A stretch of 64,000 bases of DNA from an uncultured Fidelibacterota bacterium. Its GTDB lineage: Bacteria > Fidelibacterota > Marinisomatia > Marinisomatales > Marinisomataceae. The stretch lies in NCBI GenBank assembly GCA_902526795.1, contig CABZMF010000001.1, positions 199,458 through 263,457 of the forward strand, given 5' to 3'. The position numbers and the translations under genes are program-made. Under the pieces are notes generated by a model. The model ran no database searches. It had not been told where the DNA came from and saw only the letters and a list, made by a program, of their open reading frames with translations. Of the stretch, positions 3,915-9,228 are shown piece after piece. The stretch's first letter is position 1; the number at the start of each line of letters is the position of its first letter.

Positions 3915-4865
3915 ATGAGTTTTAATAATTTTATTATTTCATTAGTTACTATAATTATTTTCAGTTGTAACAATCCTAGTCATCAGGTTATTGTCTTGGA
4001 TGATCCTATGTTTGTAACGGAACCTGTTGAAGACGCAGGAATGGACAGTATAGGATTTTTAATGAGAAAACATGTAATCGTTGTTACTTTGAAGGATAAA
4101 AATGAGCTTCATGTTTATAATGCGATGAATGGAAAATTGAAAAAATCTATTGTTAGAGAAGATGCATTTCCAAATGGAGTCACTACAATTAATGATCAAT
4201 TTGTGTTGGTGACAGAAAGAGATAATAAACATGTGGCAGTCTTTAATTCATCAATGGAATTTTTAGGAACATTTGGTGGAGATGAATTACGAAGCCCTTA
4301 TGGAATTACATTTTATAAAAAAGAAGATGGATTATATAAAGTTTTAGTAACGGATAGTTATGAATATAATAATCCGCGACAGGATAGAATTCTTACTTGG
4401 GATTTTAAAATTGAAAATGAAAACTTTGATGTAAGTTCATCAAGTGTACTTGGTAGTCCTACTTTGTACCAAGTTGAAAGTATTTACGCTGATAAATATT
4501 ACCAAACTCTATTAGTTGCTGAGGAAATGAAAGAGTATCATAAGGTAATGGCTTTAGATTTAATTTCTGGTGAAATCAAAAAAAATGATTTAGGCAACTT
4601 TGATATGGGAAATGATCCAGAAGGAATAGCTTTGGTATTAAACAACGATAATACTGGATACTGGATTTGTACTGAGCAAAGTAAAACAGATAATAGATTT
4701 CATCTTTACGATCGAGAATCTTTGAATCATTTTGCTACAATGTACTTAAAAGATGTTTCTTATACTGATGGTATTACCACTGCCTACATGCATGGTAAAT
4801 GGTTTTTATATGCTGTAGACAATGACGCTAGGATAGTAGCATTTGAATTGCCAGAAATCAATTAG
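3915..4865 (+). CDS. Beta-propeller phytase-like lipoprotein
   Basis: Lipobox IFSC; motifs TEPV, VESIYAD, AEE, DPEGIAL, GYWICTEQ..F.LYDR and V..TDGI match beta-propeller phytase blades. Confidence 0.7.
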   Translation: MSFNNFIISLVTIIIFSCNNPSHQVIVLDDPMFVTEPVEDAGMDSIGFLMRKHVIVVTLKDKNELHVYNAMNGKLKKSIVREDAFPNGVTTINDQFVLVTERDNKHVAVFNSSMEFLGTFGGDELRSPYGITFYKKEDGLYKVLVTDSYEYNNPRQDRILTWDFKIENENFDVSSSSVLGSPTLYQVESIYADKYYQTLLVAEEMKEYHKVMALDLISGEIKKNDLGNFDMGNDPEGIALVLNNDNTGYWICTEQSKTDNRFHLYDRESLNHFATMYLKDVSYTDGITTAYMHGKWFLYAVDNDARIVAFELPEIN

Positions 4866-6581: not shown

Positions 6582-6631
6582 GTACCCCGGACAGGATTTG
6601 AACCTGTGACCTACGGATTAGAAAATCGTTG
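6582..6631 (-). repeat. att-like direct repeat of the tRNA-Arg 3' half
   Basis: 6582-6624 is identical to 8097-8139 (43 bp); extends to 50 bp with 2 mismatches, ending in the anticodon stem. Confidence 0.95.
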
Positions 6632-6663
6632 ACTTCTCGAGGAGAAAATTAAAGAAATATTGT

Positions 6664-7944
6664 TTAGTTTAAATGTGAATTATCTGATCTATTACAACTT
6701 TGACATTTACATCTACCATTTGAAAGAATTGTTTGTCCTCCATGAGAATATTTATCAACATGATCGGCATCAACTTCTTTAAATTCAATTTTTCTATCAC
6801 ATTCTGTACATTTTTCATTTGAATTTTTCCAAAGTACATATCTTTCCTCATCTGAGAATCTTCTATTTAAATCTTTAATTGCAACGTCATCATTCCATAA
6901 TAAAAAATATTTTTCAAGACAATTATACCTTAACTCCATATTGCCAGGATCATTAGTGCTATGTTGACTCATGTTTTGATATGCGCTTAGTTCAATATTT
7001 TGTTCATTTTCATCTAACCTGTAATTATATATAAGTTCTTTATTGAATCGAGTAAAAAATTCCTGGAGTTTTCCATATATTTTTTCATGAGCATATTTAG
7101 ATAAAATATTTCCAATACCAATATAATATAATTGTGTTATTGTTAGTTTTTTTAACAAGGGATCTTCTTTTTGAAACACTTTTGTCATCAAATCTAAATT
7201 CTTTGTTACATTTGAAATTAATTTCTTTGAATTCTCATCACTCATTGTTTTATTGTTTCTTACCATATTATCTAAAAATTGTTTTTTAATTTCACAAAAT
7301 CTTGATAATCCTCCATTTATTGTATTTTCTTCAATTCTCAAAAGTTTTGCTGAAACTTCATAGTGTGAATATTTTTTATTTTTGAAGGTTACATATTCTT
7401 TAAAATATTTGTGTTCAGCAACATCACGAATTAATGAGCACATATCTCCGCCAAATGCATTTCTTTTCTCAGCCGAAGAAAGAGTTTCTCCATTATTTAA
7501 TCTTTGAAATAATTCTTCAATATCTTCTTCTTCAGCATTTTTAACTTCTGTAATACTTAAACTAATATCTCTAAATCTTTCTTTCCAACTATCTGAAAAG
7601 TCTGAATATCTATCACCACCTTTGGGTGCATTTTTTTCATCATGAACTGATTCAGAAAACTTAAAAGAATTGCCTAATGCAAATTCATCATTCAAAAATT
7701 CCCATATAGTAGATAGTCTTTGTTTTCCATCGATAACAGCATATATATATTCATCTTTTTCATCATACAAATCATGAAGATAAATTTTGGGTGTATCAAA
7801 ATAATTTAAAAGTGAATCTATCAAGAGCTGTTTTTTATCATTCGACCAAGCACCACTTTCTCTTTGATATGGTGGATTTGTGTTGATTCTATTTTTCTCT
7901 GTTCTAAAAAACCCTACACTTTTTGTTGTTGCTGTGCACTTCAT
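6664..7944 (-). CDS. DUF262 (GmrSD-like) domain protein with C-terminal HNH nuclease; putative modification-dependent restriction/defence protein
   Basis: PPYQR..W, VIDGKQRL.T, IEELFQRLNNG..L....KRNA (DUF262); C-terminal CTEC...DADHV...GG....NGRCKCQSCN (zinc HNH). Confidence 0.8.
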   Translation of the reverse strand: MKCTATTKSVGFFRTEKNRINTNPPYQRESGAWSNDKKQLLIDSLLNYFDTPKIYLHDLYDEKDEYIYAVIDGKQRLSTIWEFLNDEFALGNSFKFSESVHDEKNAPKGGDRYSDFSDSWKERFRDISLSITEVKNAEEEDIEELFQRLNNGETLSSAEKRNAFGGDMCSLIRDVAEHKYFKEYVTFKNKKYSHYEVSAKLLRIEENTINGGLSRFCEIKKQFLDNMVRNNKTMSDENSKKLISNVTKNLDLMTKVFQKEDPLLKKLTITQLYYIGIGNILSKYAHEKIYGKLQEFFTRFNKELIYNYRLDENEQNIELSAYQNMSQHSTNDPGNMELRYNCLEKYFLLWNDDVAIKDLNRRFSDEERYVLWKNSNEKCTECDRKIEFKEVDADHVDKYSHGGQTILSNGRCKCQSCNRSDNSHLN

Positions 7945-8029
7945 ATATCAATATAAAGTAATTCTTTTACAAAAAAAATACTAATAACCACAACGGATTT
8001 TCTAACTGTTGATCGAAGATCAGTGGATT

Positions 8030-8051
8030 TGTGTAGTTGGTGTGTAGTTGG
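8030..8051. repeat. Tandem 11-bp direct repeat TGTGTAGTTGG x2, possible integrase arm-binding sites
   Basis: Exact tandem copy about 45 bp from the tRNA-Arg 3' end, inside the island. Confidence 0.6.
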
Positions 8052-8097
8052 TAAAATAAAGAGTATTTTAAAAGAGTAAAAAGGGGATTTGTCGTCG

Positions 8098-8171
8098 TAC
8101 CCCGGACAGGATTTGAACCTGTGACCTACGGATTAGAAATCCGTTGCTCTATCCAGCTGAGCTACCGGGGC
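8098..8171 (-). tRNA. tRNA-Arg(TCT)
   Basis: Reverse complement GCCCCGGTAGCTCAGCTGGATAGAGCAACGGATTTCTAATCCGTAGGTCACAGGTTCAAATCCTGTCCGGGGTA; anticodon loop TTTCTAA. Confidence 0.96.
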
Positions 8172-8252
8172 ATGAGCCAAATTTAACTAATTAATAAAAA
8201 CTTTAAAGCTTTTTTGTAAAATTCTTCCGAGGGGCTTCCGACGAGAAATTTC

Positions 8253-8281
8253 TTGCAAAAAATCTTGTTTAGTATTAGAAT
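8253..8281 (+). promoter_or_regulatory. Sigma70-type promoter of the 75-aa gene
   Basis: TTGCAA (8253-8258), 17-nt spacer, TAGAAT (8276-8281); AAGGAG SD at 8312-8317. Confidence 0.65.
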
Positions 8282-8323
8282 ATTGAAATTAGCTTATTCA
8301 CTAAACTTTTTAAGGAGAATAAA

Positions 8324-8551
8324 ATGGCTGAAAAAGTAAAAACATGTGGTGTTAGTAAAGAAAGTGGCTATCTATATTATTTAGGTAAAGATGGTAATGT
8401 ATGGCGCTCAGGTATGTCAAGAGGCGGATCTGGAGGCGGTAATGCAGAGAAAGTTGCTGACGCTGGAGTAACGCGTGAAAGTGGTTACCTATATTTCATC
8501 GATAAAGACGGTGATGTATCTCGCGCACCTATGGCTAGAGGTAGAGGTTAA
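8324..8551 (+). CDS. 75-aa protein made of two 33-aa repeats joined by a Gly linker; candidate DNA-binding/nucleoid protein
   Basis: Residues 2-34 vs 41-73 are 20/33 identical (AEKV..xGVx[KR]ESGYLY[YF]xxKDGxVxRxxMxRG); own promoter, SD and terminator. Confidence 0.85.
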   Translation: MAEKVKTCGVSKESGYLYYLGKDGNVWRSGMSRGGSGGGNAEKVADAGVTRESGYLYFIDKDGDVSRAPMARGRG

Positions 8552-8580
8552 TAAACTTTTATCTTATTTGGTTTTTATTG

Positions 8581-8608
8581 AAAAAGGAGCATTTCGATGC
8601 TCCTTTTT
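8581..8608. terminator. Bidirectional intrinsic terminator
   Basis: AAAAAGGAGCAT-TTCG-ATGCTCCTTTTT perfect hairpin with A and T tracts, between convergent genes. Confidence 0.9.
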
Positions 8609-9228
8609 TATTTAACTATGGAATTTTTATGACTGCCAACAATCCCGCTTGAAACTATCATTCTAAAACCTTCTTCAACATCCACATCTGCAGGAGTAGT
8701 ATCCTCCTTAGTAATAATAACAAAATATCCAGATGTAGGATTAGGAGTTGTTGGTACAAAAAGATGGTAGAATTCTTCATTAGTCTCATTTACAGATTCA
8801 CCTGTTACAAATCCTAATGTCCACATTCCTTTTCTGGGATACTCTATATAAACAACTTTTTGAAATGAATCAGTCTGAGATCCGGACAGTGTTTCAATTA
8901 TTTGTTTTGTTGTTCCATATATTGAGTCTATCAAAGGAATTTTTTTGAAAATGCTTTCAAACCAATCTACGACCCTTTTACCGATCACATTTCGGGCTAA
9001 GGCTCCAAAAATTATCAATGCAAAAAATACAATGAATAAACCAACCATGGAACTGAGTAAACCAAATCCTGGAAAAGTTACATCAACAAATTTTTCAAGC
9101 GGTTCTGCAACGGTACCTCCAATCCAAATCGTTACTTCTAAAGTAACTTGTATTACATATACTGTTAGAGCTAGAGGAACTATAGTTGCAATACCTGCTA
9201 TTAGATTCGATTTAATTTTTTCAAACAT
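8608..9228 (-). CDS. DUF502 family membrane protein
   Basis: Two N-terminal TMs; IPLIDSIYGTTKQI, IEYPRKG.W.LGFVT, FVPTTPNPTSGY. Confidence 0.9.
   Translation of the reverse strand: MFEKIKSNLIAGIATIVPLALTVYVIQVTLEVTIWIGGTVAEPLEKFVDVTFPGFGLLSSMVGLFIVFFALIIFGALARNVIGKRVVDWFESIFKKIPLIDSIYGTTKQIIETLSGSQTDSFQKVVYIEYPRKGMWTLGFVTGESVNETNEEFYHLFVPTTPNPTSGYFVIITKEDTTPADVDVEEGFRMIVSSGIVGSHKNSIVK

What the first reader, a model, noticed from the sequence alone, without database searches (positions are those of the whole stretch)
8253..8608. Strongly expressed-looking 75-aa tandem-repeat protein: candidate novel nucleoid-associated protein
Seen: a monocistronic unit with a near-consensus promoter (TTGCAA-17-TAGAAT), AAGGAG SD (uncommon in this window) and a perfect TTCG-loop terminator. 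The protein is two 33-aa repeats (61% identical; GYLY[YF]xxKDGxVxR beta-hairpin-like core) joined by GGSGGGN, has 12 K/R vs 9 D/E, ends in RGRG, and has no signal peptide. Inference: an abundant small pseudo-dimeric nucleic-acid-binding protein. From memory the motif resembles the small crenarchaeal chromatin protein CC1, which I cannot verify; a bacterial CC1-like chromatin protein would be notable.
Basis: partly seen in the sequence, partly recalled or inferred. Interest (0 to 1): 0.7.

Follow-up and report, generated by a model that had tools for sequence, protein, structure and literature searches.

The report
Uncharacterised small basic two-repeat protein
A real, strongly conserved 75-residue gene of a marine Marinimicrobia (SAR406) bacterium belongs to a large unnamed family of small basic all-beta proteins, found in many uncultivated bacteria and DPANN archaea, that probably bind DNA or RNA; it is not related to the archaeal chromatin protein CC1.

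Summary
Window 8324-8551(+) encodes a 75-aa protein made of two 33-aa repeats (20/33 identical, E 3e-15). It has its own promoter, an AAGGAG Shine-Dalgarno (SD) site in a genome where about 90% of genes have none, and a 14-bp TTCG-loop terminator. Promoter, SD and terminator recur in divergent relatives, and the gene is under strong purifying selection.

The protein belongs to a large unnamed family: 1164 representatives at 50% identity and at least 585 GTDB species genomes, all MAGs. Members come from Marinimicrobia, Elusimicrobiota, Omnitrophota and Woesearchaeota/Nanoarchaeota.

Members are nearly all basic (median pI 10). Some carry Lys/Ala/Pro-rich tails, and some are fused to ParB, HNH, ASCH or zinc ribbons. 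The repeats come in pairs.

AlphaFold2 gives a confident six-stranded all-beta model. It has no match in PDB or BFVD, and Pfam and NCBIfam give no hit. The only resemblance is a weak one to beta-propeller blades.

The CC1 lead fails. The Thermoproteales family that fits the published description of CC1 shows no similarity (hhalign probability 0.15%).

Best reading: an abundant, non-specific nucleic-acid-binding protein. This is inferred, not shown. Whether it binds DNA or RNA is open.

The parts
8253..8258 (+). -35 hexamer TTGCAA
   Evidence: Found by the promoter scan. TTGACA or TTGCAA lies at the equivalent place in 14 divergent Marinimicrobia loci.
8276..8281 (+). -10 hexamer TAGAAT, 17-nt spacer
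8312..8317 (+). Shine-Dalgarno AAGGAG, 6 nt before the ATG
   Evidence: Read from the sequence. It is unique among 55 genes of the window. A strong SD is conserved across the family.
8324..8551 (+). CDS, 75 aa plus stop; small basic two-repeat protein
   Evidence: purifying selection. AF2 pLDDT 87.5 and 87.3.
8327..8425 (+). Repeat 1 (aa 2-34): strands at 3-6, 16-20 and 26-30; core GYLYYLGKDGNVWRS
8426..8443 (+). Gly-rich linker (aa 35-40, GSGGGN); low pLDDT; variable in length and Lys-rich in other phyla
8444..8542 (+). Repeat 2 (aa 41-73): strands at 42-45, 55-59 and 65-69; core GYLYFIDKDGDVSRA
8579..8610 (.). Intrinsic terminator hairpin (14-bp stem, TTCG loop) with a T-run to 8613. An A-run on the left gives a U-run on the other strand, so it is probably shared with the convergent DUF502 gene, whose stop codon is at 8608-8610.
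   Evidence: -19.9 kcal/mol, z -5.4. Equivalent hairpins follow the gene in 14 relatives.

Best explanation
The gene encodes an abundant cytoplasmic small basic protein. Its structural unit is a pair of about 35-aa three-stranded beta-meander repeats packed into one six-stranded pseudo-twofold module.

I propose that it binds nucleic acid without sequence specificity, as an architectural nucleoid-associated protein or a general DNA/RNA-coating or chaperone protein. Binding would use the conserved Lys/Arg residues around the invariant G-[YF]-L-Y-[FY] strands. The conserved Met-Ala-Arg-Gly tips after the third strand, the flexible Gly/Lys-rich linker and the C-terminal tail would add electrostatic contacts.

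Shown:
- the gene is real, conserved and under purifying selection;
- its expression signals are strong and conserved;
- the family is very large and basic;
- the repeats occur in pairs;
- the predicted fold is confident and all-beta.

Inferred:
- high abundance;
- nucleic-acid binding;
- the binding surface;
- DNA versus RNA (I lean to DNA).
For: Expression signals:
- a conserved -35/-10, 5' UTR, strong SD and terminator in divergent relatives;
- AAGGAG in a genome where 49 of 54 ORFs lack any SD;
- a strong SD in nearly all of 82 family loci from several bacterial phyla and DPANN archaea.

Charge:
- 97% of 289 two-repeat members have pI above 9, median 10, core net charge +8.

Tails:
- several members carry long (AKKAPAKK)n- or KKRK-type tails, e.g. 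P0188, P0192, P0222, P0230, P0232, L013, L022, L030 and L038. From established knowledge, such tails mark mycobacterial HupB/MDP1 and chlamydial Hc1-type DNA binders.
- Viral contigs carry single-repeat forms with poly-K tails (L138-L140).

Fusions:
- the module replaces the C-terminus of two ParB_N+HTH_ParB proteins (P0154, P0239);
- it is joined to ASCH (P0218), to HNH (one member; the motif is visible in P0205) and to zinc ribbons (P0194, P0281, P0238, P0244).

Structure:
- two independent AF2 runs give the same six strands, pLDDT 87 and pTM 0.72-0.75;
- repeats per protein are 2 (363 proteins), 4 (6) and 6 (1), arranged as adjacent pairs.

Context:
- the gene stands alone with no conserved neighbour across phyla, as is usual for nucleoid proteins.
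Against: - There is no direct binding or abundance measurement.
- The window protein is the least basic of its group (net +3, pI 9.2). It has a Gly-rich rather than Lys-rich linker.
- The fusion partners are heterogeneous. They also include DoxX and other membrane segments, HEAT, GAF, SHOCT and SLT. Some fusions are probably assembly or gene-calling artefacts.
- There is no fold match to any known DNA- or RNA-binding fold.
- The only weak sequence resemblances are to beta-propeller blades.
- Codon usage gave no sign of high expression.
Confidence: 0.55

Rival explanations
1. It is an RNA-binding or ribosome-associated protein: an RNA chaperone in the manner of cold-shock proteins, or an accessory or hibernation-type ribosome factor. 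Surface tyrosines on the beta strands would stack on bases. The RGG-like Gly/Arg segments would contact RNA.
For: - It is small and all-beta, with invariant aromatic residues on the central strands.
- It has Gly/Arg-rich linker and tail segments (SRGGSGGGN, ARGRG).
- There is an ASCH fusion.
- Conservation within the phylum is very high, 78-99%, as for translation components.
- It has a strong SD in an SD-poor genome.
Against: - It never sits in a ribosomal-protein or translation operon in the loci examined.
- The patchy cross-domain distribution argues against a core ribosomal role.
- ParB and HNH fusions and H1-like tails point to DNA.
- There is no CSD, KOW, S1 or Sm hit in Pfam and no fold match.
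Confidence: 0.2
2. It is a two-blade fragment of a beta-propeller-like fold. It would oligomerise (for example as a trimer) into a ring and act as a ligand-binding or scaffold protein rather than a nucleic-acid binder.
For: - The repeat motif G-[YF]-L-Y-[FY]-x-D-x-x-G-x-[VI]-x-R resembles blade strands.
- The family profile gives weak hits to LRP6 YWTD propellers (E 3e-3, no single significant stretch).
- Other weak hits are DUF5050 and SSL_N, faint PF27482 Beta-prop_YycP and NHL-like neighbours.
- The profile also matches the 10 repeats of an S8 peptidase, P0229.
- From established knowledge, natural two-blade lectins such as RSL trimerise into propellers.
Against: - There are only three predicted strands per repeat. 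The would-be fourth segment is a Gly/Lys-rich linker of variable length and low confidence.
- Multi-repeat relatives have 4 repeats in two separated pairs plus a zinc ribbon, not 6-8 contiguous blades.
- The family is cytoplasmic and strongly basic, with poly-K tails.
Confidence: 0.12
3. It is a bacterial homologue of the crenarchaeal chromatin protein CC1.
For: There is only a general likeness: small, basic, beta-rich, apparently highly expressed. The CC1 description comes from PMC4200833 and PMC3189178.
Against: A 55-57-aa family is found only in Pyrobaculum and Thermoproteus, with 2-3 copies per genome including identical duplicates. That matches the published description of CC1: 6 kDa, a few Crenarchaea, three T. 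tenax genes of which two are identical. It has no internal repeat and no similarity to this family: hhalign probability 0.15%, E 0.38, and no BLASTP alignment.
Confidence: 0.02

Closest known systems
CC1 (Thermoproteus/Pyrobaculum chromatin protein; Luo et al. 2007, as cited in PMC4200833)
   Same: Small (6-8 kDa), basic, beta-rich. CC1 is reported to be highly expressed, and this gene looks so. CC1 binds ssDNA and dsDNA, which is the function proposed here.
   Different: - No detectable sequence relationship.
- CC1 has no tandem repeat and no GYLYF-DKxGD motif.
- CC1 is confined to Thermoproteales, whereas this family spans many bacterial phyla and DPANN archaea.
Sul7d/Sac7d and Cren7 (SH3-like crenarchaeal chromatin proteins)
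   Same: Monomeric basic all-beta proteins of 7 kDa. They bind DNA through a three-stranded sheet and insert a hydrophobic side chain (established knowledge). This family has a conserved Met after each third strand.
HU-type proteins with Lys/Ala/Pro-rich tails (mycobacterial HupB/MDP1; PMC5974015) and chlamydial Hc1
   Same: Some family members carry the same kind of low-complexity (AKKAPAKK)n tail.
   Different: The core domain is unrelated. The window protein itself has no such tail, only RGRG.
Beta-propeller blade repeats (YWTD/LDL-receptor class B, NHL, SGL, DUF5050, PF27482 Beta-prop_YycP)
   Same: Motif-level likeness of strands 2-3 and their DxxG turn. Profile hits are weak or faint.
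   Different: - Two repeats rather than 5-8.
- Three strands per repeat.
- No hit reaches a curated threshold.
- No structural match.
- The protein is basic and cytoplasmic.
Cold-shock proteins (CspA family)
   Same: About 70 aa, all-beta, with surface aromatic residues on the central strands, monocistronic and strongly expressed.
   Different: No CSD hit in Pfam. No OB-fold match. CspA is acidic, whereas this family is basic.

Membership tests
CC1 family (Thermoproteales) | Sequence homology to the CC1 proteins of Thermoproteus and Pyrobaculum | tested here: not met
   hhalign of family profile A2 against CC1 alignment A5 gives probability 0.15%, E 0.38. BLASTP gives no alignment. That the A5 sequences are CC1 rests on my recollection. 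It is supported by size, taxon range and copy number, which match the published description.
CC1 family (Thermoproteales) | Protein of about 6 kDa, single-domain and non-repetitive | tested here: not met
   This protein is 7.9 kDa and an internal tandem duplication. The CC1-type sequences have no repeat.
CC1 family (Thermoproteales) | Binds ssDNA and dsDNA and is highly abundant | not testable with these tools
   This needs EMSA and proteomics.
Nucleoid-associated / chromatin proteins (a functional class, not a homology family) | Small, basic and cytoplasmic | tested here: met
   The window protein has pI 9.2 and the family median is pI 10. There is no signal peptide or transmembrane segment in the sequence.
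Nucleoid-associated / chromatin proteins (a functional class, not a homology family) | Very high cellular abundance | tested here: inconclusive
   Only the signals could be examined: a conserved promoter, a strong SD and a terminator. Codon usage was uninformative. No expression data were available.
Nucleoid-associated / chromatin proteins (a functional class, not a homology family) | Non-specific DNA binding and nucleoid localisation | not testable with these tools
   The support is indirect only: ParB, HNH and zinc-ribbon fusions and K-rich tails.
Sul7d/Cren7 (SH3-like) | SH3-like five-stranded barrel | tested here: not met
Beta-propeller repeats (YWTD, NHL, SGL, Beta-prop_YycP PF27482) | A hit above the family's curated threshold | tested here: not met
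   Pfam scans of the window protein and of 8 relatives give nothing above cut-off. PF27482 appears only as a 'faint' precomputed hit on 2 relatives. The LRP6 hit has no significant single stretch.
Beta-propeller repeats (YWTD, NHL, SGL, Beta-prop_YycP PF27482) | Five to eight four-stranded blades closing a ring | tested here: not met
   There are two repeats of three strands each. Repeats occur in pairs. Oligomeric ring formation could not be tested.
Cold-shock domain | CSD/OB fold with RNP motifs | tested here: not met
   No Pfam hit and no fold match.

The most novel reading that the evidence does not exclude
This is a previously unrecognised cross-domain family of major chromatin or nucleoid proteins with a new fold: a duplicated three-stranded, propeller-blade-like beta-meander. 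It would serve as an abundant DNA-organising protein in Marinimicrobia, Elusimicrobiota, Omnitrophota and DPANN Woesearchaeota. Bacterial and archaeal copies are 75-83% identical, which would reflect exchange between bacteria and archaea, occasionally by way of viruses.
Probability: 0.25. Interest if true: 0.8.

Novelty: new variant of a known kind. Interest (0 to 1): 0.62.

Why it matters
Marinimicrobia (SAR406) are among the most abundant uncultivated bacteria of the dark ocean. Elusimicrobiota, Omnitrophota and DPANN archaea dominate many groundwater and gut habitats.

All of them carry a nearly invariant, apparently highly expressed small protein that every database calls 'hypothetical'. 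It has no fold relative among solved structures.

If it binds DNA or RNA, it would add a new family, and probably a new fold, to the short list of prokaryotic chromatin and RNA-chaperone proteins. It would also be one shared across the bacteria-archaea divide.

The question is directly testable with a 75-residue recombinant protein.

Tried and rejected
1. Pfam, NCBIfam and PDB sequence searches with the single protein gave only noise: FaeA and TetR wing-like hits and streptokinase.
2. A profile of 49 diverse members against PDB sequences gave only a weak LRP6 YWTD likeness.
4. PF27482, flagged on two relatives, looked like a possible family name. It is Beta-prop_YycP and the hits are only 'faint'.
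5. The CC1 paper itself is not held. I recovered the CC1-type family from genomes and tested it, with a negative result.
6. Gene neighbourhood across 82 loci showed no conserved neighbour across phyla. There is only within-phylum synteny: panC, uvrA and an aminotransferase in Omnitrophota; a GTPase, a zinc-ribbon protein and a HerA-like ATPase in Woesearchaeota.
7. Codon bias as a proxy for expression failed. The gene uses CGY for 3 of 6 Arg codons against 7% in the background, but the ATP synthase alpha and beta genes use none. No inference was drawn.
8. Rfam found only the tRNA above threshold.
9. tblastn against cultured phages and against plasmids gave no match.
10. Searches for a cultured host returned only MAGs in both top-80 lists.
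11. Literature searches for the motif, for PF27482, and for expression or nucleoid-protein reports found nothing on this family.

Full report
**1. What is in the sequence**

Window 8324-8551(+) is an ATG-initiated ORF of 75 codons, MAEKVKTCGVSKESGYLYYLGKDGNVWRSGMSRGGSGGGNAEKVADAGVTRESGYLYFIDKDGDVSRAPMARGRG.

- Residues 2-34 and 41-73 are 20/33 identical, period 39 aa. BLASTP of the two halves gives E 3e-15.
- The protein has 12 K+R against 9 D+E, pI 9.2 and mass 7.9 kDa. It has no hydrophobic N-terminus.
- The upstream neighbour is tRNA-Arg(TCT) on the other strand (8097-8171).
- The downstream neighbour is a convergent DUF502 membrane-protein gene (8608-9228).
- The unit is therefore monocistronic.

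**2. Expression signals**

- Promoter. TTGCAA-17-TAGAAT (8253-8281) is found by the scan. Such matches are not enriched over shuffles in this AT-rich region, so on its own it proves little.
- Promoter conservation. In 14 divergent Marinimicrobia loci a TTGACA/TTGCAA box, a 17-18-nt spacer and a TAnnnT-like box lie at the equivalent position. A strong SD precedes the gene and a GC-rich hairpin with a T-run follows it.
- SD site. AAGGAG (8312-8317) lies 6 nt before the ATG. Among 54 large ORFs of the window, 49 have no SD-like motif and none has AAGGAG.
- SD across the family. Nearly every one of 82 loci, from several bacterial phyla and DPANN archaea, has AGGAGG, GGAGGT or GGGGGT at this position.
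- Terminator. It is a 14-bp stem with a TTCG loop (8579-8610), -19.9 kcal/mol, z -5.4. It touches the stop codon of the convergent gene and has an A-run on its left, so it probably terminates both transcripts.
- RNA families. Rfam finds nothing but the tRNA above threshold.

**3. It is a real, constrained gene**

The word-index search returned 2530 homologues. The best 120 are 74-77 aa long and 78-99% identical. Where they carry a name, it is 'hypothetical protein' from Marinimicrobia, Neomarinimicrobiota or Fidelibacterota MAGs.

Against the relative L066 the gene is 62% identical in nucleotides but 81% in amino acids. Forty-five codons differ only synonymously and 14 non-synonymously.

The identical protein is carried by Tara Oceans contigs with the same neighbours.

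**4. The family**

An exhaustive profile search of 1.84 billion cluster representatives found 1164 with E up to 1e-3 and 388 with E up to 1e-10.

- Most are 70-110-aa proteins with the same two repeats.
- Of 289 such proteins, 97% have pI above 9. The median pI is 10 and the core net charge is +8.
- The repeat consensus is A-E-K-V-x3-G-V-x-[KR]-E-x-G-[YF]-L-Y-[FY]-[ILV]-D-K-x-G-[DN]-V-[SW]-R-[SA]-K-M-A-R-G. One Tyr per repeat is invariant.

The top hits are Elusimicrobiota/Endomicrobia, Woesearchaeota/Nanoarchaeota, Marinimicrobia and Omnitrophota. Auribacterota and a few Myxococcota, Nitrospirota and Dependentiae also appear. All are MAGs.

Archaeal and bacterial members are 75-83% identical to one query. 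That is remarkable for proteins from different domains and implies horizontal transfer.

Nine viral contigs carry relatives:
- one is a close copy of the Marinimicrobia type (L132/L133);
- others are 45-50-aa single-repeat forms ending in poly-Lys (L138-L140).

Cultured phages and plasmids have none.

**5. Structure**

Two AlphaFold2 runs were made, one with close and one with diverse alignments. They agree: pLDDT 87.5 and 87.3, pTM 0.75 and 0.72. The strands are at 3-6, 16-20, 26-30, 42-45, 55-59 and 65-69. Only the linker (31-40) and the last residues have low confidence.

The pTM values suggest that the two halves pack into one module. I could not inspect the coordinates.

Across 394 proteins, the number of repeats per protein is:

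| Repeats | Proteins |
|---|---|
| 2 | 363 |
| 4 | 6 |
| 6 | 1 |
| 7 | 1 |
| 3 | 4 |
| 1 | 19 (mostly truncated sequences) |

In the multi-repeat proteins the repeats lie in adjacent pairs. This supports the pair as the structural unit. Single-repeat viral forms would then have to dimerise.

No similar fold was found:
- Foldseek against PDB, best E 0.35;
- Foldseek against BFVD, best E 0.43;

**6. Known families**

Pfam, NCBIfam and PDB sequence searches give nothing significant. The recurring weak signals are all beta-propeller blades:
- LRP6 YWTD (E 3e-3, no significant single stretch);
- DUF5050 and SSL_N;
- 'faint' PF27482 Beta-prop_YycP on two relatives;
- the 10 repeats of an S8 peptidase, P0229.

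So each repeat looks like a blade fragment at motif level, but no membership criterion is met.

**7. The CC1 lead**

The CC1 paper is not held. Reviews describe CC1 as a 6-kDa, monomeric, basic, beta-rich, highly expressed protein of a few Crenarchaea that binds ssDNA and dsDNA. T. tenax has three genes, two with identical products.

A sequence I recalled as CC1 proved 100% identical to a Pyrobaculum ORF. Its 55-57-aa family occurs only in Pyrobaculum and Thermoproteus, at 2-3 copies per genome including identical duplicates. This fits the description.

That family has no repeat and no similarity to ours: hhalign probability 0.15%, BLASTP nothing. The CC1 resemblance is not supported as homology. 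A purely functional analogy remains possible.

**8. Function**

The arguments for nucleic-acid binding are indirect:
- family-wide basicity;
- H1-like Lys/Ala/Pro tails on some members and poly-K tails on viral single repeats;
- the module replaces the C-terminus of two ParB_N+HTH proteins;
- it is joined to HNH, ASCH and zinc ribbons;
- it has strong, conserved translation signals;
- it is a stand-alone gene without conserved neighbours across phyla.

The arguments against:
- other fusion partners are membrane segments, DoxX, HEAT, GAF, SHOCT and SLT, and some of these fusions are probably artefacts;
- the window protein is only mildly basic;
- there is no fold match to known binders;
- there are no expression data, and codon usage was uninformative.

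My probabilities:

| Reading | Probability |
|---|---|
| Abundant non-specific nucleic-acid binder | 0.55 |
| Specifically RNA- or ribosome-associated | 0.20 |
| Oligomeric propeller-like ligand binder | 0.12 |
| CC1 homologue | 0.02 |
| Something else | the remainder |

**9. Novelty**

No tool or paper searched gives this family a name or a function. The kind of protein, a small basic abundant binder, is known. The family and its predicted fold appear to be new.

**10. Seen in passing**

- A 1.5-kb insertion at tRNA-Arg carries a GmrSD_N+HNH gene. It is bounded by an exact 43-bp copy of the tRNA 3' half and is absent from the Tara contigs.
- The genome is SD-poor.
- A conserved CCGACG-type motif lies just upstream of the -35 box.

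Noticed in passing
window 6582-8139: There is a small insertion at tRNA-Arg(TCT). Window 6582-6624 is an exact 43-bp copy of the tRNA 3' half (8097-8139). The roughly 1.5 kb between the two copies holds one gene, 6664-7944(-), 426 aa: a GmrSD_N (DUF262) domain plus a C-terminal HNH, which looks like a type IV restriction enzyme. Tara contigs that carry the identical 75-aa gene lack this segment. No integrase lies inside it.
   Followed up: partly
whole window: The genome is SD-poor and has 30.6% G+C. Of 54 large ORFs, 49 have no Shine-Dalgarno-like motif in the 19 nt ending 4 nt before the start codon. This recalls what is known for Bacteroidota. The 75-aa gene is the exception.
   Followed up: partly
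window 8224-8250 and the equivalent positions in L016, L018, L021, L026, L032, L033 and L085: A conserved GC-rich motif (CCGACGG/CCGACGAG, followed by A-rich sequence) lies about 5-10 nt upstream of the -35 box in divergent Marinimicrobia relatives. It could be an operator or an UP-like element, or it could belong to the divergent tRNA promoter.
   Followed up: no
L138, L139, L140 (IMG/VR contigs), around 4001-4105: Viral contigs encode 45-50-aa single-repeat versions of the module that end in poly-Lys tails, for example MGRIIAKEVVVRKPGFLYYIDGKGNVCEAKMARGGKKKKKKKKKK. L132 and L133 carry a two-repeat copy whose N-terminus, MAEKVKTCG, is identical to that of the window protein.
   Followed up: partly
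window 8579-8613: The terminator hairpin abuts the stop codon of the convergent DUF502 gene (8608-8610). It is flanked by an A-run on the left and a T-run on the right, so it is probably a bidirectional terminator shared by both genes.
   Followed up: partly
window 8324-8551: The gene has the highest G+C of the window, 42.5% against 30.8% for the other genes. It uses CGT or CGC for 3 of 6 Arg codons against 7% in the background. The ATP synthase alpha and beta genes use no CGY codons, so this is not an expression signature. The cause is unexplained; composition or foreign origin are possible.
   Followed up: partly
L088/L091 (Pyrobaculum oguniense), L113/L117 (Thermoproteus sp. CP80), L087-L124: The CC1-type 55-57-aa gene is present in 2-3 copies per Thermoproteales genome. 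The products of some copies are identical although the genes lie at distant loci.
   Followed up: no
L017, L019, L027, L036, L039, L041, L050, L056, L062, L065, L073, L078, L079: In 13 loci an ORF that reads as uvrA lies within 5 kb of the family gene. In L062 it lies directly downstream on the same strand. The 13 are mostly Omnitrophota-type, plus two with Marinimicrobia-type proteins. The uvrA assignment rests on the ABC ATPase signature in the sequence and was not checked against Pfam. The linkage is most likely within-lineage synteny, but it recurs in two lineages.
   Followed up: no
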